A stretch of 64,000 nucleotides of DNA from Candidatus Nanoarchaeia archaeon (GTDB lineage Archaea > Nanobdellota > Nanobdellia > Woesearchaeales > WJIZ01), in the NCBI GenBank assembly GCA_028279765.1, contig JANQND010000009.1:65198-129197 (forward strand), given 5' to 3'. A model generated the notes under the pieces. That model did not search any database and had not been told where the DNA came from. It was given only the letters and a program-made list of their open reading frames with translations. This document shows, piece by piece, positions 617 to 60,830 of the stretch. The translations under genes and the position numbers were made by a program. How positions within the stretch are numbered: position 1 is the stretch's first letter; each line of letters starts with the position of its first letter.

Positions 617-1969
617 ATGTCACAAGAAAAAATTATTACAAGGGGTCCAGAATTCTTCCCCAACATTCCAAGAATCAACTATGAAGGTTCGGACAGCAAA
701 AATCCTTTATCCTTCAAGTGGTACAACCCGGTTCAGAAGGTTGGCGGCAAAACCATGAAAGAACACCTGCGGTTTGCCATCTCCTATTGGCACACCATGC
801 AGGGAGAAGGCCGGGATATTTTTGGTAATCCCACGGTTGTGCGTCCTTGGAATACTGCATCTGATGCCAAGCAGCGTGCCGCAGATACTGCCAATGCCGC
901 TTTTGAATTCTTTACTAAAATTGATGCCGGATATTACTGCTTCCATGATGCGGATGTCATTGAAGAGGCAGGTAATCTGAGGGAATCCAATGAAAGAATT
1001 GATTTCATTGTTGGTATCTTGGAAGAACTGCAAACTGAAACCGGCATTAAATTGTTATGGAATACGACCAATCTTTTTTCAAACCCGCGATTCATGGCCG
1101 GTGCGGCGACCAATCCGGACGCCAGTGTCGTTGCTTACGCGGCAGCGAAAGTGAAAAAAATGCTCGAAGTCGGCAGCAAACTTGGCGCAGAAAATTATGT
1201 TTTCTGGGGTGGCCGCGAAGGCTACGAAACCCTGATGAACACCGATATGCAGCGCGAGCTTGACCACATGGCTAAGTTCCTCTTTGGTGCTGTTGATTAT
1301 GCAAAGAAGATTGGTTTCGATGCCCAGTTCCTGATTGAACCGAAAGCCATGGAGCCATCCAAGCATCAATATGACCACGATGCCGCGACCTGCTTAAATT
1401 TCCTGCGTGAGTATGGTCTGATGGATTATTTCAAACTGAACATCGAAGCGAACCACGCTACCTTGGCAGGCCACAGCTTTGAACATGAACTGACCGTCGC
1501 CTCCAATGCCGGTATGCTTGGCAGTGTCGATTCCAACCGCGGTGACGTTCTGCTCGGTTGGGACACCGATCAGTTTGCCATCGAATTTTATGATACCGCC
1601 CGTGCCATGATTGTCATCCTCAATCAGGGCGGCCTGGGCAGTGGTGGCTTGAACTTCGACGCGAAACTTCGCCGAGGTTCAACCGATTTGGAAGACCTGT
1701 TCATTGCCCACATCGGCAGTATGGATGCGTTTGCCGTGGGTCTTCTGGTTGCGGAAAAATATTTGGCCCGACACAAAGAAATCCTGGCTAACCGCTACAA
1801 TTCATTTGATAGCGGTATCGGCGAACAATTCGAATCCGACAATATTGATTTTGAAGCCTTTGAAAACCACGCACTGAATAATCCTGAACCTGTAACCATC
1901 AGCGGCAAGCAGGAATTGCTGGAAAATGAATTCAACGGTATCCTTAATGATGTGATGAAGGCAGCATAA
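617..1969 (+). CDS. xylA: Xylose isomerase (class II, ~450 aa)
   Basis: Full-length match to the xylose isomerase family, with FHD/WGGREG/EPKP-type conserved blocks (YYCFHDADV, FWGGREGY, LIEPKAMEP). The gene is visibly GC-richer than its neighbours. Confidence 0.9.
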   Translation: MSQEKIITRGPEFFPNIPRINYEGSDSKNPLSFKWYNPVQKVGGKTMKEHLRFAISYWHTMQGEGRDIFGNPTVVRPWNTASDAKQRAADTANAAFEFFTKIDAGYYCFHDADVIEEAGNLRESNERIDFIVGILEELQTETGIKLLWNTTNLFSNPRFMAGAATNPDASVVAYAAAKVKKMLEVGSKLGAENYVFWGGREGYETLMNTDMQRELDHMAKFLFGAVDYAKKIGFDAQFLIEPKAMEPSKHQYDHDAATCLNFLREYGLMDYFKLNIEANHATLAGHSFEHELTVASNAGMLGSVDSNRGDVLLGWDTDQFAIEFYDTARAMIVILNQGGLGSGGLNFDAKLRRGSTDLEDLFIAHIGSMDAFAVGLLVAEKYLARHKEILANRYNSFDSGIGEQFESDNIDFEAFENHALNNPEPVTISGKQELLENEFNGILNDVMKAA

Positions 1970-45409: not shown

Positions 45410-46981
45410 TTGTTATCTGCATGTATGAAAATACCGCAGCAGTATTCTGACCCTACTTTAAATCTTGCGCTGGATACTCTTGCCTCTAAGAAGCAGGCAA
45501 TCGTTTTTGTCAATACGAAAAACTCTGCAGAAAAGACTGCAGAAGAAATCGCAAAAAAAGTTAAAGAAAAAACTCATGTCGTCCTTGCAGAAAAAGCCCT
45601 GCATTCTCTCTCAAGCCCCACAAAACAATGCCAGCGTTTAGCAAAGTGCCTGGAAAAAGGAATTGCTTTTCATCATGCAGGATTAACTTCTCAGCAAAAA
45701 GAGCTTATAGAGGATAGTTTTCGAAACAAGGAGATCAAAGTCATTGCCGCAACACCCACGCTTGCAGCAGGGTTAGATCTCCCAGCGTATCGTGTTATAC
45801 TAAAAGATCTGCGTAGATTCGGAAGGAGGGGCCTGCAGTATATCCCGGTTCTCGAATACCTGCAAATGGCGGGACGAGCAGGGCGGCCAAAGTATGATAC
45901 GAAAGGGCAGGCAATCACCGTAAGCTCTTCAGAAGATCAAAAAGAAGAATTAACGAACAGGTATCTTCACGGAGAGCCGGAATCTATCTATTCGAAACTT
46001 GCTGTTGAGCCGGTACTCAGGACCTATGTATTATCTTTGATCGCATCAAAATTTGCAACTTCTAAGAAGTCTCTTTTCGACTTTTTTTCCCAGACCTTCT
46101 GGGCGCACCAGTTTGGTGATACCCAGAAGTTATTTGGAATTATCGAAAAAACTCTCCAGTTATTAGAGGAGTGGGAGTTCATAATCGGATCAGATACCTC
46201 TGAGCAGCATGCAGAGTTCACTTCTGCATCAGACTTGCTCAAGGAGGATACCAAGTATAAAGCAACGATATTGGGTAGCAGAGTAGCACAGCTCTATATT
46301 GACCCTTACACTGCACATTATTTTGTAGAAGCGCTGCAGAGGGGAGCGCAGCGATCCATTGCTCCCTTTTCTATTCTTCACATTGTCTCCTCTACTTTGG
46401 AAATCAGGCCGCAGCTGAAGGCAAAGACAAAAGAATTTGAAAAAATCCAGGAGGCTCTGCTCACCTATGGAGATGATCTTCTGGACAAGGAGCCCTCTAT
46501 CTATGATGAAGACTACGAGCAGTTTCAGAACGCCATCAAAACTGCACTGTTCTTTCAGGACTGGATTGATGAAAAAGGCGAAGAATTCTTATTGGAGGAA
46601 TACGCTATCAGGCCGGGTGAAATTAAGGCAAAGCTTGACATCGCAGACTGGCTGATCTACTGCATGGATGAGATGGCTCGAATACTCTCTTTTAAGGATT
46701 TGATTGCAGAACTCAAGAAATTACGAGTCCGCCTGCAATATGGAGTCAAAGAAGAGATCATTACTTTGCTTAAGCTCAAGAATATTGGTCGTGTTCGTGC
46801 ACGAAATTTGTATAAGAATGGTATCAAAGATATTGCTGCGGTGAAAGCTGCAGACTTTATGAAACTCTCCCAAATACTCGGAAAGAATATTGCAATCGAC
46901 GTCAAAGAGCAGGTAGGGCAAAAGGTCGAACAGGTAAAGGAAAATAAAAGGAAAGGACAAATTAGTTTGAAGGATTATTGA
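45410..46981 (+). pseudogene. Hel308/Ski2-like helicase lacking the N-terminal RecA1 ATPase domain (C-terminal 523 aa only)
   Basis: Motif IV VFVNTKNSAE, motif V ATPTLAAGLDLPA, motif VI QMAGRAGRP, and WH, ratchet and HhH (LKNIGRVRARNLYKNGIKD) domains are present. No Walker A/B region is present. The ORF begins 17 nt after an unrelated surface-protein gene. Confidence 0.55.
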
Positions 46982-47021: not shown

Positions 47022-47297
47022 GTGATAAGTATGTCAGAGGTCGAAATAACAACAACATCAATAAAAGGACAAGTAGTTATACCACAGAGCATACGGGATG
47101 AGCTTAATATTCAACCGGGAACAAAATTTGCAGCCTTTGGTAAGAAAGATATTGTTATTCTCAAGAAGATGAGTACTCCTTCTATACAGGATTTTGAAAA
47201 TCTGGTTGATTATGGAACACGCTTTGCAAGAGAGAAAGGAATAAAATCAGAAAAAGACGTTCAGAGAATACTGCGAGATTCAGGTAAGAATAAATGA
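47022..47297 (+). CDS. AbrB/SpoVT-type antitoxin (VapB-like)
   Basis: GQVVIPQSIRDELNIQPGTKF swapped-hairpin motif. 4-nt overlap with the downstream PIN gene. Confidence 0.6.
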   Translation: MISMSEVEITTTSIKGQVVIPQSIRDELNIQPGTKFAAFGKKDIVILKKMSTPSIQDFENLVDYGTRFAREKGIKSEKDVQRILRDSGKNK

Positions 47298-47689
47298 ATG
47301 TTGTTCTGGATACAAATATTCTTATTTCTGCGCTTTTTTGGAGAGGAACTCCTTATAGGGTGGTTCTTAGTGCTCTTCAGGGGAAGTATTCTCTTTGTCT
47401 TTCCAGAAGTATATTGCTTGAGCTAGAGGAAAAACTCAAGTTGAAATTTAAATTTCCGCAAAGCAAGATAAAAGATCTCTTGACAATTTTAAGCTCTTAT
47501 TCCATTATTGTGAAACCTTCAAAAAAACTGCATGTTATTACAGAAGATCCAGATGACAATAAAATCCTCGAGTGTGCAATTGCTTGCAAAGCAAAGTATA
47601 TTATTTCAGGAGATCGTCATCTTTTACACTTAAAACAATACAAAGGAATAAGAATCATTTCAGCAAATGAGTTTCTAAAACTACTATGA
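47294..47689 (+). CDS. PIN-domain toxin (VapC-like)
   Basis: VVLDTNILISALF ... D ... ECA ... GD acidic residues typical of PIN. Confidence 0.7.
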   Translation: MNVVLDTNILISALFWRGTPYRVVLSALQGKYSLCLSRSILLELEEKLKLKFKFPQSKIKDLLTILSSYSIIVKPSKKLHVITEDPDDNKILECAIACKAKYIISGDRHLLHLKQYKGIRIISANEFLKLL

Positions 47690-48150
47690 AAAAACTATTT
47701 CTTGCATTAATGTATCATGGAAAAGGGTCTCTTGATAATTCACTCTCTCTTCTTCAGAAACACTTCGGCCCTATTCAATCTCAATCAGAGCCCTTTGATT
47801 TTAATTTTACTAATTATTATGAGGAAGAATTTGGAAAAGACCTGAAGAAGGTTTTTTTAGTATTTGAAAAGGAAATTTCTAAGGGAGATTTAGTCAACAT
47901 AAGAGCACAAACTGCAGAGATTGAAGAAGAATTATCTGCTAATGGAAAAAGAACCGTAAACCTTGATCCAGGCTATCTTTCCGAAACTGAATTGGTGTTA
48001 GCGACAAAAAAATACCAATCCTTCAAAGAGGATTTAGGTAATGGCGTTTATGCCCATAAAGTGTTAGAGTTTAAAGATGATGAAGTGATTACGTTTTCAC
48101 ATACTTTTGCTGATTATAGAAAGAATAAAGAATTTTTTGAGAATAGCTAG
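47686..48150 (+). CDS. Hypothetical protein (154 aa), third gene of an overlapped operon
   Basis: ATGA overlap with the vapC stop. No domain recognised. Confidence 0.3.
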   Translation: MKKLFLALMYHGKGSLDNSLSLLQKHFGPIQSQSEPFDFNFTNYYEEEFGKDLKKVFLVFEKEISKGDLVNIRAQTAEIEEELSANGKRTVNLDPGYLSETELVLATKKYQSFKEDLGNGVYAHKVLEFKDDEVITFSHTFADYRKNKEFFENS

Positions 48151-48944
48151 TGACTTGAATACACTTCTAACGGGTTTTTTACTTCATCTGCAATTTGTAT
48201 TTGCATATGATAAGCAGTTTTTAAAGCTCTTTCAGCTACGATTTTAGCAATTTGTAGCCCTTCACGACCTGAAAGTCCGGGTAAATAGAGTAGGAACTCA
48301 TCACCTGCAGAATCGTTAACTCTATGGGCAACAATATCTGACACTTCAGTCCGCACTCTTCGATCTTGCCCTGTTCGAGCTTCATTTTCTGCAAACATCA
48401 TATCTTCATTCTCTCTTCGATCATATCCAGACCGTACAGATCTACAAATTCCATCAATAGCGGCTCTAAGAATTCCTTCTCCAGAAGCTTCCAAATATCG
48501 ATCAACTAAAGTGTATCCTTTAATTGCATTATGATCGTGCATGCTATTGCCATCTAAGAGAACAAAATATCCTTCATTTTGACCTAGCTCATCTAATTCA
48601 AGCCGCTTGGTTTCGTATCCAAGCTTGTTAAAAAGTCCTGTCTTAGAATCAATTGACAATCGTTCTTGCGCAGCAATTAAATCTTCGCTGGCATTTGTTT
48701 CTCTAAGATAATTTAATACTTGCATAAAGTACTGAGCATTAGATTGATTTTGAATAGGGCTATCTTGAAGAGGTTCACCTTGATAAATATTGATATTCAT
48801 GAGGTCTTCTCGATTTCCTTTTTCCTTAGCTTCCATTAACGCCTGTGATGCTTCCTCAAAAGATGTACCAATACCTACTGAAAACTTAATAATTTCATTT
48901 TCCAGGCTTTTCGGTGTATTATGAGTAACCATACCACTATTCAA
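48147..48944 (-). CDS. GGDEF-like nucleotide cyclase-fold protein (degenerate AGDEF signature) with N-terminal domain of unknown function
   Basis: DSKTGLFNK (DxLTGLxNR-like), VLLDGNSMHDHNAIKG (lDiDhFK.iND..G-like), GEGILRAAIDGI, RVNDSAGDEFLLYLPG (RyGGDEFavlLp-like). Confidence 0.45.
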   Translation of the reverse strand: MNSGMVTHNTPKSLENEIIKFSVGIGTSFEEASQALMEAKEKGNREDLMNINIYQGEPLQDSPIQNQSNAQYFMQVLNYLRETNASEDLIAAQERLSIDSKTGLFNKLGYETKRLELDELGQNEGYFVLLDGNSMHDHNAIKGYTLVDRYLEASGEGILRAAIDGICRSVRSGYDRRENEDMMFAENEARTGQDRRVRTEVSDIVAHRVNDSAGDEFLLYLPGLSGREGLQIAKIVAERALKTAYHMQIQIADEVKNPLEVYSSH

Positions 48945-49052
48945 TCCCTTCTCCTATATAAAGCTTTCTATATTTGTCACTAAAAAGTAACAAAAATAAT
49001 GGAAAAAATCAGGGGAAACTATTTAAAAAGCCTGTCATTAGCAAATACTCAA

Positions 49053-49143
49053 GCCCGAGTAGTATAATGGATAGAATACCTGGTTGCGGAATACTATTCA
49101 ATGCAAAATCCAGGAGATCGGAGTTCAATTCTTCGCTCGGGCA
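49053..49143 (+). tRNA. Intron-containing tRNA, anticodon tentatively GCG (Arg)
   Basis: 7-bp acceptor stem GCCCGAG/CTCGGGC, D arm GTAT-AATGGATAGA-ATAC, anticodon stem CCTGG/CCAGG enclosing a 26-nt loop (TTGCGG plus about 19-nt insertion at 37/38), T arm CGGAG-TTCAATT-CTTCG, discriminator A. No encoded CCA. Confidence 0.55.
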
Positions 49144-49295
49144 TTATACGTGCGGCTTTATGCCGCACCCTTTCCCGAGGCTTTTGAAAAGGCTCCTTGC
49201 TGTTCGATTCTCGGCACGATATAATTATCATGAATTGCATATGATTCGCCTTATAGGGAGCAGAGGTATAGATTTTTAAGTGAGAGAAGGATTCT

Positions 49296-49913
49296 TTGCA
49301 CATGGGTGGGAACGAGATTGAAGAAGTCATAGATTCATTATTTGTCAATGTGCCAGACTTTCCATTAGCTGGACACAATTACCCTAATGTTAGCAGTATT
49401 CTTTATACAAATCCAGAGATTTTGCAAAATATGGTGCAGGATTGCATTGATCATGTTGAACAGCACAAGCCAGAAAAGATTGCCTGCATAGAAACTTGTG
49501 GTTCCTATTTAGGAGCACCAGCTGCTTATTCTCTTCGTTTAGGTCTTGTTCCATTGAAGTCTAGAGGTAAATTAGCTGGGGAGGTTGTAAGCGAGAAGTA
49601 TGATATAGTCTATGCATCAGGCAGGGAAATGCAAATGCAAACAGCTGCTGTTAATCCGAATGAGAGGATATTCATTGTTGATGATTATCTAGCAACAGGG
49701 GGCTCCTTTTTTGCAGCGAAGAAGCTTATTGAAAGCCAGGGTGGCGCTGTAGTAGGAGCTTATTTCGGTATAATTGAGCCTTCATTACATGGATATTCTA
49801 AAGCCATGCATTCTGGAGTTCCAATCAGGTATACCTTTTCTCTTGATTTTCATCAGCAACATAAGGAATGGAGGGTTTCCAATAAAACTTTGCTAGTCAA
49901 TAACTGGCAGTAA
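49296..49913 (+). CDS. Type I phosphoribosyltransferase (adenine/purine PRTase-like)
   Basis: PRPP-binding motif IFIVDDYLATGGS. Confidence 0.65.
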   Translation: MHMGGNEIEEVIDSLFVNVPDFPLAGHNYPNVSSILYTNPEILQNMVQDCIDHVEQHKPEKIACIETCGSYLGAPAAYSLRLGLVPLKSRGKLAGEVVSEKYDIVYASGREMQMQTAAVNPNERIFIVDDYLATGGSFFAAKKLIESQGGAVVGAYFGIIEPSLHGYSKAMHSGVPIRYTFSLDFHQQHKEWRVSNKTLLVNNWQ

Positions 49914-49927
49914 ACAAGTCCTGAATC

Positions 49928-50902
49928 TCAATCCTTCACATACTTGCTCACATCAAAACGAACAGCTAAATACTTGATGGGCTTACCGTCAGCACCCAAA
50001 ACAGGCGTAATCGCCGACTCCACCCAATAGAACCGTCCGGATTTCGCTTTATTCTTAATCATCCCGATCCAGGTTTTACCTGAGGAAATCGTCGTCCACA
50101 TTTTTCTAAAGAAAGATGCCGGATGATGACCAGAATTAATAATCGAGTGATCCTTGCCTAATAGCTCCTTTCGGGAGTATCCCGAAATTTCCACAAACTT
50201 ATCATTCACATAGGTAATCTTCCCTTTCACATCAGTCTCTGCAACGATTGCGGACTTATTCAATGCTTCTCTTTCTGCCTCAAGCAGCCGCTTCTGCCTC
50301 ATCACTTCCTCTTGCGCCCGAACTCTCTCTGTTATATCTTCAATACTCAATACCACAGACAATCTCTCATCAGGGTTAATCAGCTTCGAGCCACGAATGC
50401 TCAGGGTACGAAACCTGCTATCAACTAAGGTCATCTCACAAGTATCAGCAATACCATCAATGATTCGGGTGATTTTGCGCAGCTTCACAGGATTATCCAA
50501 TCCTAACACTGCCTCATAAAATCGCTGGCCTTCCCGATGCCCGTACCAATCAACAAGCCTGCTGCTCATAAAGAGAATAGTATAGCTTGAATCAATGACT
50601 GCAAGACCGTTGGGAAGGGTGGACACAATGTCTGAGAGAACTTTTTCTGTGAATGTTTTATGCTCAGTGTTAGCAGAATCCATGAGGGTTTGAATGGGTG
50701 CCTTATTGATGAACCACAGCTTTGCTTTGCCCACAGCTTTATGCCGCAGAAGTCCATTTGCTTCCATAAATGAGAGATACTTAGAGACCGTATGCCGCTC
50801 AAAGGACATCTTTTTTTCAATTTCAGTAATCGTTGCACCACTAGCTCCAATATCAGAGACAATGGAGAGAATTTGTTTTTCAATCTTCTTTTTGACAATC
50901 AT
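49928..50902 (-). CDS. Winged-HTH transcription regulator with two PAS sensor domains
   Basis: N-terminal wHTH (GATITEIEKKMSFERHTVSKYLSFMEANGLL) followed by two PAS-like segments. Divergent from the nrd locus. Confidence 0.55.
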   Translation of the reverse strand: MIVKKKIEKQILSIVSDIGASGATITEIEKKMSFERHTVSKYLSFMEANGLLRHKAVGKAKLWFINKAPIQTLMDSANTEHKTFTEKVLSDIVSTLPNGLAVIDSSYTILFMSSRLVDWYGHREGQRFYEAVLGLDNPVKLRKITRIIDGIADTCEMTLVDSRFRTLSIRGSKLINPDERLSVVLSIEDITERVRAQEEVMRQKRLLEAEREALNKSAIVAETDVKGKITYVNDKFVEISGYSRKELLGKDHSIINSGHHPASFFRKMWTTISSGKTWIGMIKNKAKSGRFYWVESAITPVLGADGKPIKYLAVRFDVSKYVKD

Positions 50903-51276: not shown

Positions 51277-53280
51277 ATGGAATTGAAAAGAATACGAAAA
51301 CGTGACGCAAGAATAGTAGAGTTCGATCAACAAAAAATTACGAGCGCTATATTTAAGGCTGCAAAATCCGTTGGCGGAACAGATGAGAGTATAGCAAAAA
51401 CCCTCTCTGATAAAGTAGTTGCTGTACTCGAATACATGTACGGCGCAAAGGAAATCCCTACCGTTGAAGAAGTCCAGGATGTCGTGGAAAAAATTCTTAT
51501 CAAGTCAGGCCACGCAAGTACCGCAAAAGCATACATCCTCCATCGAAAGCAGCACGAAAAAATGCGCTCCATGAAAGGATCCTTTCTGGAAGTGCGCAAT
51601 GCTGTCGATGAATACCTTAAAAAAACAGACTGGCGTGTCTATGAGAACAGCAATGCAGATTACTCGTTTTCAGGCCTTATGTCACACACCGCAAGCAAAA
51701 TACTGGCAAACTACACGCTCACTGAAATCTATTCAGATGAGATCGCCCGCGCACACAAAAACGCGGACATCCATATCCATGATCTAGGATACGGAGTTAT
51801 TGGCTATTGTTCTGGTTGGTCACTAAAAAGTCTGCTTATGAGCGGATTTGGCGGGGTTTCCAAAAAAATCCGATCAAAACCACCTAAACACCTAGATGTT
51901 GCATGCGTTCAGATGGTAAATTTTCTCGGAACCATGCAGATGGAGCATGCAGGGGCCCAGGCGTTTTCCTCCATAGATACCCTGCTTGCTCCTTTTATTC
52001 GCATAGATAACCTCCCTTACGAACAGGTAAAACAATGCATGCAGATGCTTGTTTTCTCTTTGAATGTGCCAAGCAGATGGGGATGCCAGGCACCCTTTAC
52101 TAACTTCACTTTTGACTGGACAGTACCAAAAGATATGGAGAAAGAGCCAGCAATAATTGGTGGAGAACTCATGGATTTCACTTACGGAGACTGCCAAAAC
52201 GAAATGGACCTGATTAACCAGGCATTTATTGAAGTCATGCTTGAAGGAGATGCAGACGGCAGAACATTCTTCTATCCTATCCCTACCTATAATGTCACGA
52301 AAGACTTCAACTGGGATTCTTATAACGCGAAACTGCTTTTTGAAATGACCGCTAAGTACGGGACCCCTTATTTTCAGAACTTCATTAATAGCTCATTAAC
52401 TCCTTCAGATGTTCGCAGTATGTGTTGTAGATTACAGCTCGATCTCAAGCAACTAAGAAATAAGATGGGAGGATTATTCGGCGCCGGTGACCAAACCGGG
52501 AGTATTGGTGTAGTAACCATCAATCTTCCACGAATCGGATACCTTGCAAAAGATGAAAAGGAATTTTTCCAATATCTAGATCAAGTGATGGAAATAGCAA
52601 GAGATTCCTTGGAAACAAAGCGATCAATCATTGAAAAAAATCTCAAAGCAGGCTTAATGCCCTTCACCAGGAAATTTTTGGGTTCCTATCGCAATCATTT
52701 TTCAACTATCGGACTAAATGGAATGCATGAAGCGCTGCTCAACCTTATCGGTAAGGGAATAGAAACACAAGAGGGAAGAGAACTGGCAGTAAAGGCACTC
52801 CAATTCATGCGCGATAAGCTCACTGAGTATCAGGAAAGCACAGGCAACCTCTACAACCTTGAAGCAGTGCCTTGTGAGTCTGCAACATACCGATTCGCAA
52901 AGCAGGACAAAGAGAATTATCCTGATATTATCTCTGCAGGAACAAAGGAAAAACCCTACTACACGAACTCAACACACTTACCGGTAAACCACACCGACGA
53001 TGTCTTTGATGCCCTGGAACATCAGGATGAGTTACAGACACTCTATACCGGTGGCACAGTCCTGCATTGCTTTTTGGGAGAGAGGCTGGACAATTGGCGC
53101 AGTACGATGAAGCTAGTCAAAACTATTGCCAATAACTTCTCTCTCCCATATTTTACCCTGACACCCACTTTCAGTATTTGCCCCGAGCATGGATACATTA
53201 AAGGAGAACATTTCACTTGTCCCTGTCACATAGAAGAAGAAAAAGTACAAATAAAGGAGGTAGAAACATATGAAATGTGA
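51277..53280 (+). CDS. nrdD: Anaerobic ribonucleoside-triphosphate reductase, large polypeptide (ATP-cone, catalytic barrel, Zn site) without the glycyl-radical segment
   Basis: N-terminal ATP cone (RIRKRDARIVEFDQQKITSAIFKAA), class III RNR body, C-terminal CPEH...CPCH Zn motif. The ORF ends 13 codons before the position where the RxxGY motif would be expected. Confidence 0.8.
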   Translation: MELKRIRKRDARIVEFDQQKITSAIFKAAKSVGGTDESIAKTLSDKVVAVLEYMYGAKEIPTVEEVQDVVEKILIKSGHASTAKAYILHRKQHEKMRSMKGSFLEVRNAVDEYLKKTDWRVYENSNADYSFSGLMSHTASKILANYTLTEIYSDEIARAHKNADIHIHDLGYGVIGYCSGWSLKSLLMSGFGGVSKKIRSKPPKHLDVACVQMVNFLGTMQMEHAGAQAFSSIDTLLAPFIRIDNLPYEQVKQCMQMLVFSLNVPSRWGCQAPFTNFTFDWTVPKDMEKEPAIIGGELMDFTYGDCQNEMDLINQAFIEVMLEGDADGRTFFYPIPTYNVTKDFNWDSYNAKLLFEMTAKYGTPYFQNFINSSLTPSDVRSMCCRLQLDLKQLRNKMGGLFGAGDQTGSIGVVTINLPRIGYLAKDEKEFFQYLDQVMEIARDSLETKRSIIEKNLKAGLMPFTRKFLGSYRNHFSTIGLNGMHEALLNLIGKGIETQEGRELAVKALQFMRDKLTEYQESTGNLYNLEAVPCESATYRFAKQDKENYPDIISAGTKEKPYYTNSTHLPVNHTDDVFDALEHQDELQTLYTGGTVLHCFLGERLDNWRSTMKLVKTIANNFSLPYFTLTPTFSICPEHGYIKGEHFTCPCHIEEEKVQIKEVETYEM

Positions 53281-58226: not shown

Positions 58227-59043
58227 AGAATTGTGTTTGTAGCTTATCGGGCTTTTCTCCAGGTTTCATTACTTTTTCAAGCATAGGCAGCTTGAGCCCG
58301 ACAAAAGTCCTCATCCGATCCTGTATGAACTTATCATCGAATCCACGATCACGCAGCATTTTAATCATCAAATCAAGATTCATATCTTTGGTTGGTCCTC
58401 TGCATCCCCAGCACTCAAAGCCGCCGTTAATGCAGACCGAATCACAGCCACCAGTAGTAATAGGCCCAAGGCAGGGCTTTCCGGAGTCCAGCAGGCATGT
58501 ATTACCGTTTCTGCGGCACTCCACGCACACCGGACTCTGATAAGGCCGGGGAACAATTCCCTTTGCTACACTTTTAATAAACGTAATAATTTCTTTTTTA
58601 TCCGGCGGGCAGCCGGGAATATAATAATCTACCTGGACATGCTCATCAATAGGAGTGGGGTCAACATCCTCGATTTCTTCCATTTTTTTGTATAATAAAT
58701 GCTCATAATTTTCTTTGAGGGTGAAGTGCCTATATGCAGGAACGCAGCCAGTACATGCGCAGGCACCCAGGCTGACAAGCATCTTGGTATTTTTCCGCAA
58801 TTTCTTCACGGTTTCAAGATCGCCTTTATCGGCAACAAGTCCTTCAAGAATAACGCAGTCAAACTGCTCATCAATATTGACCTCTTTGATAAAAGGAAAC
58901 GCCTTGAGATTAACCAGGTTCACGACATCGAGAATCTCGTCTTCATTGAAGATAAGCGAAAGCTGGCAGCCGGCACAACCGGTGATTCCATACACTCCTA
59001 CATTAAGTTTCTCGCTCTTAGCACTCGTATTCTTTTTACTCAT
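58201..59043 (-). CDS. [NiFe]-hydrogenase small (delta) subunit
   Basis: GCAGCQLS proximal-cluster motif and additional Cys clusters. NuoB-like fold. Confidence 0.8.
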   Translation of the reverse strand: MSKKNTSAKSEKLNVGVYGITGCAGCQLSLIFNEDEILDVVNLVNLKAFPFIKEVNIDEQFDCVILEGLVADKGDLETVKKLRKNTKMLVSLGACACTGCVPAYRHFTLKENYEHLLYKKMEEIEDVDPTPIDEHVQVDYYIPGCPPDKKEIITFIKSVAKGIVPRPYQSPVCVECRRNGNTCLLDSGKPCLGPITTGGCDSVCINGGFECWGCRGPTKDMNLDLMIKMLRDRGFDDKFIQDRMRTFVGLKLPMLEKVMKPGEKPDKLQTQFYGEKIYYG

Positions 59044-59863
59044 CGCTCAGCTCCTTCATCTCATCATATCTGAATACCGGGCCGTCTACGCATGTGAACT
59101 TTCCTTTAATCATGCAATGGCAGCACACGCCCATGGCGCAATACATTAATCGCTCTGCACTCAAAAAAATCTGCTTATCATTGAATCCCTTTTCTTTGAG
59201 CACTTCAATCACATACTTCATCATAATAGGCGGTCCGCATACAAACACAATCTTATTTTCGTTGTTGATAGGAGTTGACCGCAAAACATCAGTCACAAAA
59301 CCATGCTTTGCATCATAGCACATCTCCCCATGCGCCTCTTCATCGACCGTGACCTGCAGATGATACTTATTGCGCCACTCTTCTAACTCCCGCTTAAAGA
59401 GAACATCATTAGGTGAGCGATACCCTAAGAAGAGCATCACTTCCTTAAAATCATCGCGATGGTTCTCGACATAATCAATGATTCCTTTCAGCGGTGCAAC
59501 ACCGCATCCACCACCAATAATCAGCACATTATTCCCAGTCAGGTACTGCATAGGATATCCTCTGCCATACGGGCCACGAACAAGCAGGGTATCTCCTTTT
59601 TTGAGGTTGCCGAGCGCCTTGGTTACGGTTCCAACCTCGCGAATATTGAGTTTGATATATTCTTCGGAATCAGAACAAATAGAAATCGGTGCTTCACCAA
59701 AGCCGGGAAGCGAGAGCTGCACAAACTGTCCGGGATCATGCTTTACTTTCATATTGATCGTGATAGTGAAATTATCATCGGTCTCCCGGTAATACTCCAG
59801 CACTTTGTAGGGCTTGGGAATATAGGGGTTCTCAGTTTTTGCTTTCTGTTTCTTCTTTGCCAT
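59036..59863 (-). CDS. Hydrogenase gamma subunit (FAD/NAD(P)-binding oxidoreductase with C-terminal [2Fe-2S])
   Basis: FNR-like fold. GGGCGVAPL nucleotide-binding motif. C-terminal CAMGVCCHCMIKGKFTCVDGP cluster. Start set to MAKKKQ (59863), rejecting the overlapping extension. Confidence 0.7.
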   Translation of the reverse strand: MAKKKQKAKTENPYIPKPYKVLEYYRETDDNFTITINMKVKHDPGQFVQLSLPGFGEAPISICSDSEEYIKLNIREVGTVTKALGNLKKGDTLLVRGPYGRGYPMQYLTGNNVLIIGGGCGVAPLKGIIDYVENHRDDFKEVMLFLGYRSPNDVLFKRELEEWRNKYHLQVTVDEEAHGEMCYDAKHGFVTDVLRSTPINNENKIVFVCGPPIMMKYVIEVLKEKGFNDKQIFLSAERLMYCAMGVCCHCMIKGKFTCVDGPVFRYDEMKELSDE

Positions 59864-60830
59864 GTTCCATCTTATTAATAATGTCCACGAAATCAATTCG
59901 TGTCGGGCAGCCATCAATACATCTGCCGCACCCAACACACATCTGCACGCCATATTTCTCCTTAAAATATTCTAACTGATGATAGATGCGGTGCTTGAAT
60001 CGCTCTTCCCTGTCTTCACGGAAAACATGATCTCCTGCCACTCTCGTAAACTCCTGCAGTTGGCACGAACTCCAGGATCGTTTTCGCTCACCCTTATTGA
60101 CATTTTCAGCTTTCACTTCATCGTGAATCTCAAAGCAGTAGCAGGTAGGGCAAAGCGCAGTACAGGCACCGCAGGAGAGACAAATATCCGCTCCTTTTTT
60201 CCAGTCCTTATGGTCATAAAACGCAGAAATATCCTTCTTATCTAACCGATCAGCTCCGGGTATCACCTTATCTGCCTGGGTCATCAGGCGTGTTGAAGGA
60301 CTAAAAAGCTTCCCATATTTTTCTGCAAGCTTCTTTCCTTTCTCCGATCCTACCTCAACGAGAAAATGATCTTCCTTATCATAAAACATCAAATCAAAAA
60401 AATCAATCAAGTCCAGGGAGCCGCAAAAGCAGTACGGTGATGGTGCGCTAGGGCAATGGTAACCTAGCAGTAAGCTATTTTTTCGCTGTGCAATATAATA
60501 CGGATCCTGCGTATCCTTCATGAATACGATATCCTGATGATGAATTGCGTTCAGGTCGCACTTTCTGATCCCAAAGAACGCACGTTTAGGCGAAGAAAGC
60601 GTTGTCTCCTGGATCTTATTTCCGGTGAACGTAAATAGCACTTCCTCTTTTTTGAAGAAATATTCCTTGAGCGGAAAATACGCATTCTTTTCCAGATGGA
60701 TCGTTTCTGGATTCTTCACACGCTCAAAACGCACTACATCGGTTTTGACAGGAGCAATCAGTTCATAGCTCTTGCTAAGCTGGAGCAAAAACTCATTCAA
60801 CCTCTTTTTTTCCATATGCAGAACCTGCAT
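59832..60830 (-). CDS. Hydrogenase beta subunit (4Fe-4S ferredoxin-like)
   Basis: CLSCGACTALCPTCYC and CVGCGRCIDGCP ferredoxin motifs. First gene of the beta-gamma-delta-alpha operon, as in Pyrococcus hydBGDA. Confidence 0.75.
   Translation of the reverse strand: MQVLHMEKKRLNEFLLQLSKSYELIAPVKTDVVRFERVKNPETIHLEKNAYFPLKEYFFKKEEVLFTFTGNKIQETTLSSPKRAFFGIRKCDLNAIHHQDIVFMKDTQDPYYIAQRKNSLLLGYHCPSAPSPYCFCGSLDLIDFFDLMFYDKEDHFLVEVGSEKGKKLAEKYGKLFSPSTRLMTQADKVIPGADRLDKKDISAFYDHKDWKKGADICLSCGACTALCPTCYCFEIHDEVKAENVNKGERKRSWSSCQLQEFTRVAGDHVFREDREERFKHRIYHQLEYFKEKYGVQMCVGCGRCIDGCPTRIDFVDIINKMEHGKEETESKN

What the first reader, a model, noticed from the sequence alone, without database searches (positions are those of the whole stretch)
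48147..48944. GGDEF-like (AGDEF) nucleotide-cyclase-fold protein in an archaeal genome, adjacent to a TA operon and a tRNA
The C-terminal 160 aa follow the GGDEF domain order (DxxTGLxN … LLDxN…N..G … G.GILR..IDGI … R.NDSAGDEFLLYLPG). Diguanylate cyclases are essentially unreported as functional signalling enzymes in archaea. The site reads AGDEF with an about 30-aa insertion before it, so the protein could be a divergent cyclase (c-di-GMP or another cyclic nucleotide) or an inactive receptor domain. It sits convergent to a vapB-vapC-unknown three-gene overlapped operon and about 100 nt from a tRNA gene, a typical landing site for horizontally acquired DNA. A nucleotide-signal-producing module with a defence-like role is conceivable.
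Basis: partly seen in the sequence, partly recalled or inferred. Interest (0 to 1): 0.65.

Follow-up and report, generated by a model that had tools for sequence, protein, structure and literature searches.

The report
Circularly permuted GGDEF cyclase in DPANN archaea
This gene encodes a stand-alone GGDEF-type nucleotide cyclase domain whose last third has moved to the front of the protein; it belongs to a small family carried on archaeal (Woesearchaeota-like) contigs, a domain of life where such enzymes are thought to be almost absent.

Summary
Pfam GGDEF does not hit the protein itself. Its family (about 80 clusters at 50% identity among 1.84 billion proteins) is clearly GGDEF. 27 of 40 members hit PF00990, the family profile hits only GGDEF and mCpol chains in the PDB, and the top 28 Foldseek hits of a confident AF2 model (pLDDT 85.7) are all GGDEF domains.

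The C-terminal part stops after helix alpha3. The missing beta4-alpha4-beta5 unit, with the SxGxG and AxxAxxxAK motifs, sits at the N-terminus. Reordering the sequence in silico gives one colinear profile alignment across the whole GGDEF domain.

Catalytic residues are invariant or nearly so in 66 representatives (D131, N139, R208, G214, D215, E216, K40), so an active cyclase is likely, probably GTP-specific.

The family lies on archaeal contigs, two of them named Woesearchaeota. It shows conserved synteny next to a truncated Hel308 gene. The VapBC pair is an insertion found only in this window, and there are no att repeats and no defence-model hits. The horizontal-transfer and defence reading is therefore not supported. 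Enzyme activity and product remain untested.

The parts
48147..48944 (-). Whole ORF (265 aa, P0001): a stand-alone, circularly permuted GGDEF-like protein. The probable true start is the ATG at 48932, which would give 261 aa.
48771..48911 (-). N-terminal module, aa 12-58. It holds strand 21-26 (FSVGIG), helix 29-42 (EASQALMEAKEKG) and strand 50-53. This is the equivalent of GGDEF beta4-alpha4-beta5, with K40 matching PleD K442.
   Evidence: This module matches mCpol profile positions 82-109 of 114. It aligns to the C-terminal part of canonical GGDEF with hhalign E 1.1e-4. pLDDT is 89-97.
48651..48770 (-). Connector, aa 59-98, with two helices (70-82, 87-95). It joins the relocated unit to alpha0 and is a possible dimerisation or stalk element (inference).
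   Evidence: secondary structure, pLDDT 80-97; N69, A70, V76 and L80 conserved in close homologs
48177..48650 (-). Core, aa 99-256, equivalent to GGDEF alpha0-beta1-alpha1-alpha2-beta2-beta3-alpha3. It contains D99xxTGL, D131 (metal), H136, N139 and D148 (guanine), R208, and A213-G-D-E-F217.
48339..48431 (-). Arg-rich insertion of about 31 aa (aa 172-202: SGYDRR...QDRRVRTEVS), predicted disordered. It lies between R171 and D203, which align with the R and D of the canonical RxxD inhibitory site.
   Evidence: pLDDT is 49-52 here. The alignment is from hhalign. R171 is kept in 62/66 and D203 in 60/61. Canonical-order relatives P0064, P0069 and P0079 carry the same insertion.
48294..48308 (-). 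AGDEF motif (aa 213-217).
   Evidence: Located. Family counts are G214 64/66, D215 65/66, E216 66/66, and position 213 A 33 / G 14.
48956..48963 (-). TTTATATA, a candidate archaeal TATA box about 25 nt upstream of the ATG at 48932. It suggests a leaderless transcript (inference).
   Evidence: sequence read
49053..49143 (+). tRNA-Phe(GAA), 91 nt, probably with an intron. It is divergent from the gene and is not part of its function.
47686..48150 (+). DUF4416 gene, convergent with the GGDEF gene and overlapping its stop. It is the ancestral downstream partner of the helicase gene and is not a toxin-antitoxin component.
47022..47689 (+). VapBC-like pair (MazE/AbrB-type antitoxin plus PIN_3 toxin). 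It is inserted between the helicase and DUF4416 genes only in this genome.
45410..46981 (+). Hel308-type helicase lacking the first RecA domain. It is the syntenic marker next to the family in six loci.

Best explanation
The gene encodes a stand-alone GGDEF-family nucleotide cyclase domain that is circularly permuted. The usual last unit (strand beta4, helix alpha4 with the phosphate-binding Lys, strand beta5) is encoded first, at aa 12-58. A two-helix connector follows (aa 59-98). Then comes the rest of the domain, alpha0 to alpha3 (aa 99-256), with the metal-binding Asp, the base-recognition Asn and Asp, and an AGDEF hairpin.

In the folded protein the N-terminal unit completes the palm sheet. 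This is shown only at the level of predicted secondary-structure order and model confidence. It has not been checked in coordinates.

By analogy with PleD and WspR, two copies would each bind one GTP with Mg2+ and join them into c-di-GMP or a close relative. All of the following steps are inferred:
- The metal is held through D131, D215 and E216.
- The guanine is read by N139 and D148.
- The phosphates are held by K40 and H136.

There is no sensor domain. Control would have to come from expression, from dimerisation through the connector helices (or by exchanging the N-terminal unit between subunits), and from the Arg-rich loop that splits the RxxD product-inhibition site.

The gene is a vertically inherited resident of Woesearchaeota-like DPANN archaea. 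It is not an island cargo gene.
For: Homology to GGDEF.
- 27 of 40 family members hit Pfam GGDEF, best E 1.9e-11.
- P0014, P0019, P0020 and P0031 score 32-43 bits against a cut-off of 23.8, but only over profile positions 2-94 of 161.
- The family profile hits 48 PDB chains. Almost all are GGDEF-domain proteins and two are mCpol chains; none is from an unrelated fold family (best 5.4e-8).
- hhalign against 10 canonical GGDEF domains gives E 1.1e-21.

Permutation.
- The N-terminus (aa 5-45) matches the C-terminal end of the mCpol profile (positions 80-110 of 114) and of the GdpP-GGDEF profile (75-104 of 126).
- HMMER aligns profile columns 20-48 to residues 143-167 of 5m3c, the same chain whose residues 4-109 align to columns 88-212.
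- hhalign of the N-terminal module alone gives E 1.1e-4 to template columns 131-168.
- The de-permuted alignment gives one colinear hit of 152 columns (template 4-168), score 157.1, against 140.8 for the native order.
- The AF2 model from 66 sequences has pLDDT 85.7 and pTM 0.82. Its element order is b-a-b | a-a | a-b-a-a-b-b-a, with no beta4 after alpha3.
- The 28 best Foldseek PDB hits are all GGDEF domains, at probability 0.66-1.00 (0.93 or higher for 26 of them).
- At least 55 of 66 representatives have GxG at residues 10-36 and GDEF at 159-243.

Activity.
- D131, N139, R208 and E216 are kept in 66/66; D215 in 65, G214 in 64, K40 in 54/63 and D148 in 39/66.
- These map onto the PleD active residues D327, N335, E370, K442 and D344 listed in PMC6629876.
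- An AGDEF enzyme, VCA0965, makes c-di-GMP (PMC3974145).

Archaeal and vertical inheritance.
Against: - Pfam GGDEF does not reach E 10 on this protein itself.
- The Foldseek E-values are only about 1e-3 and TM-scores are at most 0.49. This is expected for a sequential aligner on a permuted fold, but it is weak.
- I could not inspect model coordinates, so the docking of the N-terminal unit into the sheet is inferred.
- The gain from de-permutation is modest: hhalign rises by 16 score units, Pfam by 4-5 bits in three of four GGDEF-hitting members (P0014, P0020, P0031), and P0019 does not improve.
- The hairpin carries three extra residues (R-V-N-D-S-A-G-D-E-F) and the first Gly is Ala.
- The PleD K332 equivalent is His, and R446 has no exact equivalent.
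- No receptor, phosphodiesterase or riboswitch for c-di-GMP was seen in the window.
- c-di-GMP has never been detected in an archaeon (PMC10249747).
Confidence: 0.6

Rival explanations
1. It is a non-catalytic GGDEF-like domain. It would bind GTP, c-di-GMP or a partner protein as a receptor or scaffold, as in LapD, GdpP or NbdA-type degenerate domains.
For: - The motif is AGDEF rather than GGDEF. NbdA's AGDEF domain is described as degenerate.
- The hairpin has a 3-residue insertion and there is an Arg-rich loop in the inhibitory-site position.
- There is no direct Pfam hit.
- No c-di-GMP machinery was seen nearby.
Against: Degenerate GGDEF domains normally lose the metal and base residues. 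Here D131, N139 and E216 are kept in 66/66, D215 in 65/66 and K40 in 54/63, across sequences only 22-50% identical to P0001. An AGDEF enzyme can be active (PMC3974145).
Confidence: 0.15
2. It is an active palm-domain enzyme with a different product. Candidates are cGAMP or c-di-AMP (as with Hypr GGDEF), a cyclic oligoadenylate (as with mCpol or Cas10), or linear pppGpG.
For: - Position 148, the Hypr-determining position, is T, S or N in 26 of 66 family members.
- The N-terminal module scores against mCpol models.
- The altered hairpin could change the chemistry.
Against: - In this protein and its close subfamily, N139 and D148 sit at exactly the PleD N335 and D344 spacing (D+8, D+17). That arrangement specifies guanine.
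- The mCpol match covers only the last 30 or so profile positions and is below its cut-off (15.1 against 26.4 bits). The core matches GGDEF far better (1.9e-11 against 2.5e-4).
- No CARF, SAVED or 2TM effector is nearby.
Confidence: 0.17
3. It is a horizontally acquired signalling or defence cargo gene, integrated at the tRNA and working with the adjacent toxin-antitoxin operon.
For: A tRNA lies 108 nt away. A VapBC-like pair lies within 500 nt. Local G+C is 0.34-0.36, against about 0.41 for the window.
Against: - The same helicase / (DUF4416) / permuted-GGDEF arrangement occurs in six independent loci whose proteins are 39-49% identical to P0001. These include two Woesearchaeota MAGs that lack the toxin-antitoxin pair.
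- Where a tRNA is present in a relative (L010), it is a different one (tRNA-Arg).
- No att-like repeats were found.
- The gene lies 5' of the tRNA.
- PADLOC finds nothing for the protein or for two distant relatives.
- Other parts of the window are equally AT-rich.
Confidence: 0.03
4. It is a C-terminally truncated ordinary GGDEF domain fused to an unrelated N-terminal domain, with no permutation.
For: The N-terminal match is short (about 30 residues) and is sub-threshold against each single library model.
Against: - A GGDEF palm without beta4 and alpha4 would lack one sheet strand and the phosphate-binding Lys.
- The N-terminal unit has exactly the missing strand-helix-strand, with the SxGxG...AxxAxxxAK signature (G26 62/63, A39 55/62, K40 54/63).
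- It aligns to the right columns in four independent comparisons.
- It is modelled at pLDDT 89-97, with pTM 0.82 for the whole chain.
Confidence: 0.05

Closest known systems
Canonical GGDEF diguanylate cyclases (Pfam PF00990; PleD, WspR, DgcZ)
   Same: Same palm fold elements. Same metal-binding Asp and G-D-E-F hairpin. Same Asn and Asp guanine readers at identical spacing. Same AxxAxxxAK helix with the phosphate-binding Lys, and the same DxxTGLxN start. These structures are the best fold matches.
   Different: - The order of elements is rotated, with beta4-alpha4-beta5 first.
- There is no sensor or receiver domain.
- The first Gly of the motif is Ala.
- The hairpin has three extra residues.
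- The RxxD inhibitory site is split by an Arg-rich loop of about 31 aa.
- The hosts are archaeal rather than bacterial.
Canonical-order GGDEF proteins with the same Arg-rich insertion (P0064, P0069, P0079)
   Same: They share the RSGxDRR...RR...D insertion at the same place and the same core motifs. They are also short stand-alone proteins of 223-264 aa. P0079 lies next to a DUF357 gene; that this family is archaeal is from my own knowledge.
   Different: They keep the SxGxA...ADxALYxAKxxGKN unit at the C-terminus, so they are not permuted. They are probably the stock from which the permuted family arose (inference).
AGDEF diguanylate cyclase VCA0965 of Vibrio cholerae (PMC3974145)
   Same: It has an AGDEF motif and demonstrated c-di-GMP synthesis. 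This shows that Ala at the first position is compatible with activity.
   Different: It is bacterial, has the canonical domain order, and has no insertion.
mCpol / Panoptes OptS minimal CRISPR polymerase (PF18182; PDB 9mnr, 9nwn)
   Same: It is a small stand-alone palm domain of the same superfamily. The C-terminal strand-helix motif matches the N-terminal module here.
   Different: Only that motif matches, and it is below threshold. The core is GGDEF-like rather than Cas10-like. There is no partner effector gene and no defence context.

Membership tests
GGDEF domain (PF00990) | Protein scores above the Pfam gathering threshold (23.8 bits) | tested here: not met
   There is no hit for P0001 even at E 10. 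Relatives P0014, P0019, P0020 and P0031 score 32-43 bits, and 27 of 40 members hit at E <= 1. Membership therefore rests on transitive and profile evidence (hhalign E 1e-21).
GGDEF domain (PF00990) | Palm fold with elements in the order alpha0-beta1-alpha1-alpha2-beta2-beta3-alpha3-beta4-alpha4-beta5 | tested here: not met
   All elements are predicted, but in the order beta4-alpha4-beta5-(2 helices)-alpha0...alpha3. Foldseek's best 28 hits are GGDEF domains, with TM-scores of at most 0.49. A colinear alignment is obtained only after in-silico de-permutation.
Active diguanylate cyclase | Metal-binding Asp on beta1 and acidic pair in GG[DE]EF (PleD D327, E370, E371) | tested here: met
   D131, D215 and E216 are kept in 66/66, 65/66 and 66/66 of the family. 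The mapping comes from hhalign, and the residue list from PMC6629876.
Active diguanylate cyclase | Guanine-recognising Asn and Asp (PleD N335, D344) | tested here: met
   N139 is at D131+8 and D148 at D131+17, the same spacing as in PleD. N139 is kept in 66/66. Position 148 is D in 39, T in 15, S in 6 and N in 5.
Active diguanylate cyclase | Phosphate-binding Lys and Arg (PleD K332, K442, R446) | tested here: inconclusive
   K40 matches K442 (54/63). H136 matches K332 (H 43, K 23). R446 has no exact equivalent: P0001 has R45 at K+5, while most members have Lys at K+3.
Active diguanylate cyclase | Both glycines of GG[DE]EF | tested here: not met
   The motif reads A213-G214. In the family, position 213 is A in 33 and G in 14. 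The AGDEF enzyme VCA0965 is active (PMC3974145).
Active diguanylate cyclase | RxxD inhibitory site five residues before the motif | tested here: inconclusive
   R171 and D203 align with the R and D of the canonical RxxD but are separated by an insertion of about 31 aa. Both are nearly invariant.
Active diguanylate cyclase | Converts 2 GTP to c-di-GMP as a dimer | not testable with these tools
   This needs enzyme assays.
mCpol (PF18182 / NF033576), Panoptes | Full-length match above threshold, plus an adjacent membrane or CARF effector gene | tested here: not met
   Scores are 15.1 bits against 26.4, and 20.8 against 40, covering only the last 30 or so profile positions. Neighbours are DUF4416, VapBC, a tRNA and a PRTase. 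There is no PADLOC hit.
tRNA-targeted genomic island / defence island cargo | Flanking att repeats, an integrase, variable presence among relatives, defence neighbours | tested here: not met
   No tRNA-derived repeats were found. No integrase is found among the six flanking proteins scanned, 47022-50902. Synteny is conserved in six loci. PADLOC is negative.

The most novel reading that the evidence does not exclude
DPANN archaea of the Woesearchaeota type carry a vertically inherited, catalytically competent, circularly permuted diguanylate cyclase. That would make c-di-GMP, or a closely related cyclic dinucleotide, a genuine archaeal second messenger in these episymbionts. The permutation and the split inhibitory site would give a new way of controlling a sensor-less cyclase, for example dimerisation by exchanging the N-terminal unit.
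Probability: 0.35. Interest if true: 0.85.

Novelty: new variant of a known kind. Interest (0 to 1): 0.68.

Why it matters
Reviews state that GGDEF enzymes and c-di-GMP are essentially absent from archaea. One GGDEF domain was known in 2018 (PMC5847659). Later reviews speak of 'almost complete absence' (PMC10086821) and note that c-di-GMP has not been detected in any archaeon (PMC10249747).

Here a GGDEF-derived family with intact catalytic residues sits on many independent archaeal contigs in conserved synteny. That argues against contamination and against recent transfer. It also gives a concrete, small (about 260 aa), sensor-less protein with which to test for cyclic dinucleotide synthesis in archaea.

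I found no report of a circularly permuted GGDEF domain in the searchable literature. Such a permutation explains why domain models miss these proteins. Censuses of signalling proteins may therefore undercount them.

Tried and rejected
- Ribosomal protein S3Ae. A single-sequence PDB search gave S3Ae at E 9e-5. The family profile hits no S3Ae chain at all, so this was a chance match.
- First AF2 model. With only four sequences it was poor (pLDDT 62.7), and its Foldseek list was uninformative. It was replaced by the 66-sequence model.
- Genome scans. The first genome-contig scan, with the four-sequence alignment, found nothing. The 40-sequence alignment was too diverse to scan with. The 13-sequence alignment found two Woesearchaeota MAGs.
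- Conserved operon partner. Clustering all neighbours in 25 loci gave only the helicase, PKD-repeat proteins and DUF4416 (lineage synteny), plus local pairs such as cupredoxin with a flavoprotein, and membrane proteins.
- REC-like gene. A REC-like gene follows the homolog in L002 but occurs nowhere else.
- Integration scars. None were found.
- Defence models. PADLOC gave no hit for the protein. The helicase, PRTase and HTH hits are generic domain similarities.
- c-di-GMP machinery. Motif scans of the window for EAL, HD-GYP, PilZ and DAC signatures found only a lone GRGYP with no accompanying HD-GYP-type His/Asp motif, in ORF 59036..59953, which I did not annotate. Rfam found no riboswitch. This covers only 64 kb and so is not informative about the whole genome.
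- Origin of canonical-order relatives. The contigs of P0064 and P0079 are too short to place.
Full report
**1. What is in the sequence**

The ORF at 48147..48944 (-) encodes 265 aa.

An in-frame ATG at 48932 lies about 25 nt downstream of a TTTATATA box at 48956..48963. It also matches the N-termini of homologs better. I therefore think the real product is 261 aa, made from a leaderless transcript. This is an inference.

The neighbours are as described:
- Three overlapping + strand genes: a MazE/AbrB-type antitoxin, a PIN_3 toxin and a third gene.
It is convergent with the ORF and overlaps its stop codon.
- A 91-nt tRNA-Phe lies 108 nt upstream and is divergent from the gene.

**2. Is it GGDEF?**

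Not by a direct test. Pfam and NCBIfam give no GGDEF hit for this protein. They give only a weak match of residues 13-45 to the last 30 or so positions of the mCpol models.

The word-indexed database holds only three other close relatives. A profile built from these four sequences was searched against 1.84 billion representatives. It found 80 clusters, 44 of them below E 1e-10. Nearly all are 200-280 aa proteins matched from end to end.

Evidence at the family level:
- Of 40 members, 27 hit Pfam GGDEF (best 1.9e-11) and 24 hit mCpol.
- Of five members scored singly, four (P0014, P0019, P0020, P0031) exceed the GGDEF gathering score, but only over profile positions 2-94 of 161; P0001 itself does not hit.
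- The family profile hits 48 PDB sequences. Almost all are GGDEF-domain proteins and two are mCpol chains (best 5.4e-8).
- The ribosomal S3Ae match seen with the single sequence disappears with the profile, so it was chance.
- An AF2 model made with 66 sequences is confident (pLDDT 85.7, pTM 0.82).
- Its 28 best Foldseek hits in the PDB are all GGDEF domains (WspR, DgcB, LapD, DosC and others), at probability 0.66-1.00, 0.93 or higher for 26 of them.

**3. The domain is circularly permuted**

The C-terminal part of the protein covers alpha0 (107-119), beta1 (125-132), alpha1, alpha2, beta2 (205-208), beta3 (216-222) and alpha3 (226-256). The chain then ends.

A GGDEF palm also needs three further elements:
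- beta4 (SxGxA);
- alpha4 (ADxALYxAKxxGRN, with the phosphate-binding Lys);
- beta5.

Exactly such a strand-helix-strand is found at the N-terminus, modelled at pLDDT 89-97: FSVGIG (21-26), EASQALMEAKEKG (29-42) and NINI (50-53).

Independent comparisons place this unit on the C-terminal end of GGDEF-type domains:
- mCpol profile positions 80-110 of 114.
- GdpP-GGDEF profile positions 75-104 of 126.
- Residues 143-167 of 5m3c, the same chain whose residues 4-109 align to the core.
- Residues 96-123 of Panoptes OptS.

I also ran hhalign against ten canonical GGDEF domains taken from the weak hits:
- The native order gives a core hit (score 140.8, template columns 10-117) plus a separate hit of columns 11-38 to template 131-168.
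- The N-terminal module alone gives E 1.1e-4 to those same columns.
- Moving the module behind the core gives one colinear alignment of 152 columns (template 4-168), score 157.1.

In at least 55 of 66 representatives the GxG motif lies at residues 10-36 and GDEF at 159-243. The arrangement is therefore a family trait and not an assembly artefact.

Limits of this evidence:
- I could not read model coordinates or run a permutation-aware superposition.
- The docking of the N-terminal unit into the sheet is therefore inferred from element order and model confidence.
- Pfam scores rise only 4-5 bits on de-permutation in three of the four GGDEF-hitting members; P0019 falls slightly (42.8 to 41.9 bits).

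**4. Active site**

The PleD residues used in the literature to judge activity are D327, K332, N335, D344, E370, K442 and R446 (PMC6629876). The hhalign alignment and family counts give this mapping:

| PleD residue | Residue here | Family conservation |
|---|---|---|
| D327 | D131 | 66/66 |
| K332 | H136 | H 43, K 23 |
| N335 | N139 | 66/66 |
| D344 | D148 | D 39, T 15, S 6, N 5 |
| E370, E371 | D215, E216 | 65/66, 66/66 |
| K442 | K40 | 54/63 |
| R446 | no exact equivalent (R45 is one position off) | - |

Other features of the site:
- The first Gly of the motif is Ala (A 33, G 14 in the family). An AGDEF enzyme, VCA0965, makes c-di-GMP (PMC3974145).
- The hairpin has three extra residues (R-V-N-D-S-A-G-D-E-F).
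- R171 and D203 are both nearly invariant and align with the R and D of the RxxD product-inhibition site. They are separated by an Arg-rich loop of about 31 aa, predicted disordered.
- The same loop occurs in a few canonical-order GGDEFs (P0064, P0069, P0079). These are probably the ancestral stock (inference).

Such strict conservation of catalytic residues, across sequences only 22-50% identical to P0001, argues for an enzyme rather than a degenerate receptor. N139 and D148 at the PleD spacing argue for GTP.

**5. Organism and context**

The window encodes an archaeal CCA-adding enzyme (above its equivalog cut-off), a family B polymerase, SRP54 and a Hel308-type helicase.

Two homologous loci come from MAGs titled Candidatus Woesearchaeota. 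Other loci carry archaeal markers:
- PolD DP2 and a diphthamide synthase (L001).
- An L18e-L13-S9 ribosomal protein cluster (L020).
- CDC48-type ATPases (L016 and L023).

Synteny:
- In six independent loci the gene is convergent with the same truncated Hel308 gene: the window/L004, L002, L005, L006, L009 and L010.
- DUF4416 lies between the two genes in three of these loci.
- PKD-repeat genes lie beyond the helicase.
- The VapBC pair occurs only in the window. There it splits the helicase-DUF4416 pair, whose genes overlap in L002 and L005.

Tests of the island and defence idea:
- No att-like repeats flank the region.
- The only tRNA next to a relative is a different one (tRNA-Arg in L010).
- PADLOC has no hit for the protein.
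- No partner gene is conserved across the family.

The gene is thus a resident, vertically inherited gene of these DPANN archaea. It is not cargo at a tRNA, and nothing ties it to defence.

**6. Mechanism proposed**

Shown at the level of sequence and predicted fold: this is a complete but rotated GGDEF palm with an intact half-site.

Inferred:
- Two copies each bind GTP with Mg2+ and form c-di-GMP.
- Because there is no sensor domain, the control points would be expression and dimerisation. Dimerisation could go through helices 70-95, which sit where the stalk helix of canonical cyclases enters alpha0. It could also go by exchange of the N-terminal unit between subunits.
- The Arg-rich loop at the inhibitory site is a further possible control point.

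Rivals are a non-catalytic receptor, a different nucleotide product, and a truncated domain with an unrelated N-terminus. They are weighed in the fields above.

**7. Comparison and novelty**

The protein works like a GGDEF diguanylate cyclase. It fails two formal membership tests: the Pfam threshold and the canonical element order. It differs further in the AGDEF hairpin, the split RxxD site and its archaeal hosts.

On novelty:
- One homolog is labelled 'GGDEF domain-containing protein' by IMG, so the superfamily link is not new.
- Full-text searches for permuted GGDEF domains and for GGDEF in Woesearchaeota found nothing relevant.
- Reviews describe GGDEF and c-di-GMP as essentially absent from archaea.

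I rate it a new variant of a known kind. Its interest is fairly high because it gives a direct handle on whether any archaeon makes c-di-GMP. Activity and product remain untested.

Noticed in passing
window 45410..46981 (+); also L002 1652..3211, L005 1321..2928, L009 8737..10302, L010 8741..10300: The Hel308-type helicase is only 519-535 aa. It matches positions 223-715 of the 739-position NCBIfam model, so the first RecA (DEAD) domain is missing. The upstream gene is a PKD-repeat protein, so this is not a local frameshift. The truncated form is conserved in five loci, which suggests a split or N-terminally reduced Hel308 in these DPANN archaea.
   Followed up: partly
window 47022..47689 (+): The VapBC-like pair (MazE/AbrB antitoxin just below the Pfam cut-off, PIN_3 toxin) is inserted between the helicase and DUF4416 genes. 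Those two genes overlap each other directly in L002 and L005. This is a clean example of a toxin-antitoxin pair inserting into an operon.
   Followed up: partly
window 47686..48150 (+): DUF4416 (E 4.9e-41) is co-transcribed with the helicase in relatives. Its function is unknown.
   Followed up: no
window 49053..49143 (+): tRNA-Phe(GAA) is 91 nt long but covers the full 71-position Rfam tRNA model. It probably contains an intron of about 18-20 nt.
   Followed up: no
window 51277..53280 (+) and the small ORF just after it (L004 5511..5675): The anaerobic ribonucleotide reductase NrdD (667 aa) is followed by a separate 54-aa ORF that also hits the NRDD family. The C-terminal glycyl-radical piece may be encoded separately.
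   Followed up: no
window 617..1969 (+): A xylose isomerase scores 644 bits, above its equivalog cut-off, in a DPANN-like genome. It may be a bacterial acquisition.
   Followed up: no
P0064, P0069, P0079; L026 82..372: These are canonical-order stand-alone GGDEF proteins with the same Arg-rich insertion (RSGxDRR...RR...D) in the inhibitory-site loop. P0079 lies next to a DUF357 gene. They may be non-permuted archaeal relatives.
   Followed up: partly
L002 834..1202 (+): In one relative a 122-aa receiver-like (REC, weak Pfam hit) gene directly follows the permuted GGDEF gene on the same strand. It was not found in any other locus or in the window.
   Followed up: yes
window 49928..50902 (-): A winged-HTH plus PAS protein of 324 aa, with the confident PAS match at residues 218-319. 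It is a one-component-type sensor about 1 kb from the GGDEF gene. No link between the two was established.
   Followed up: no
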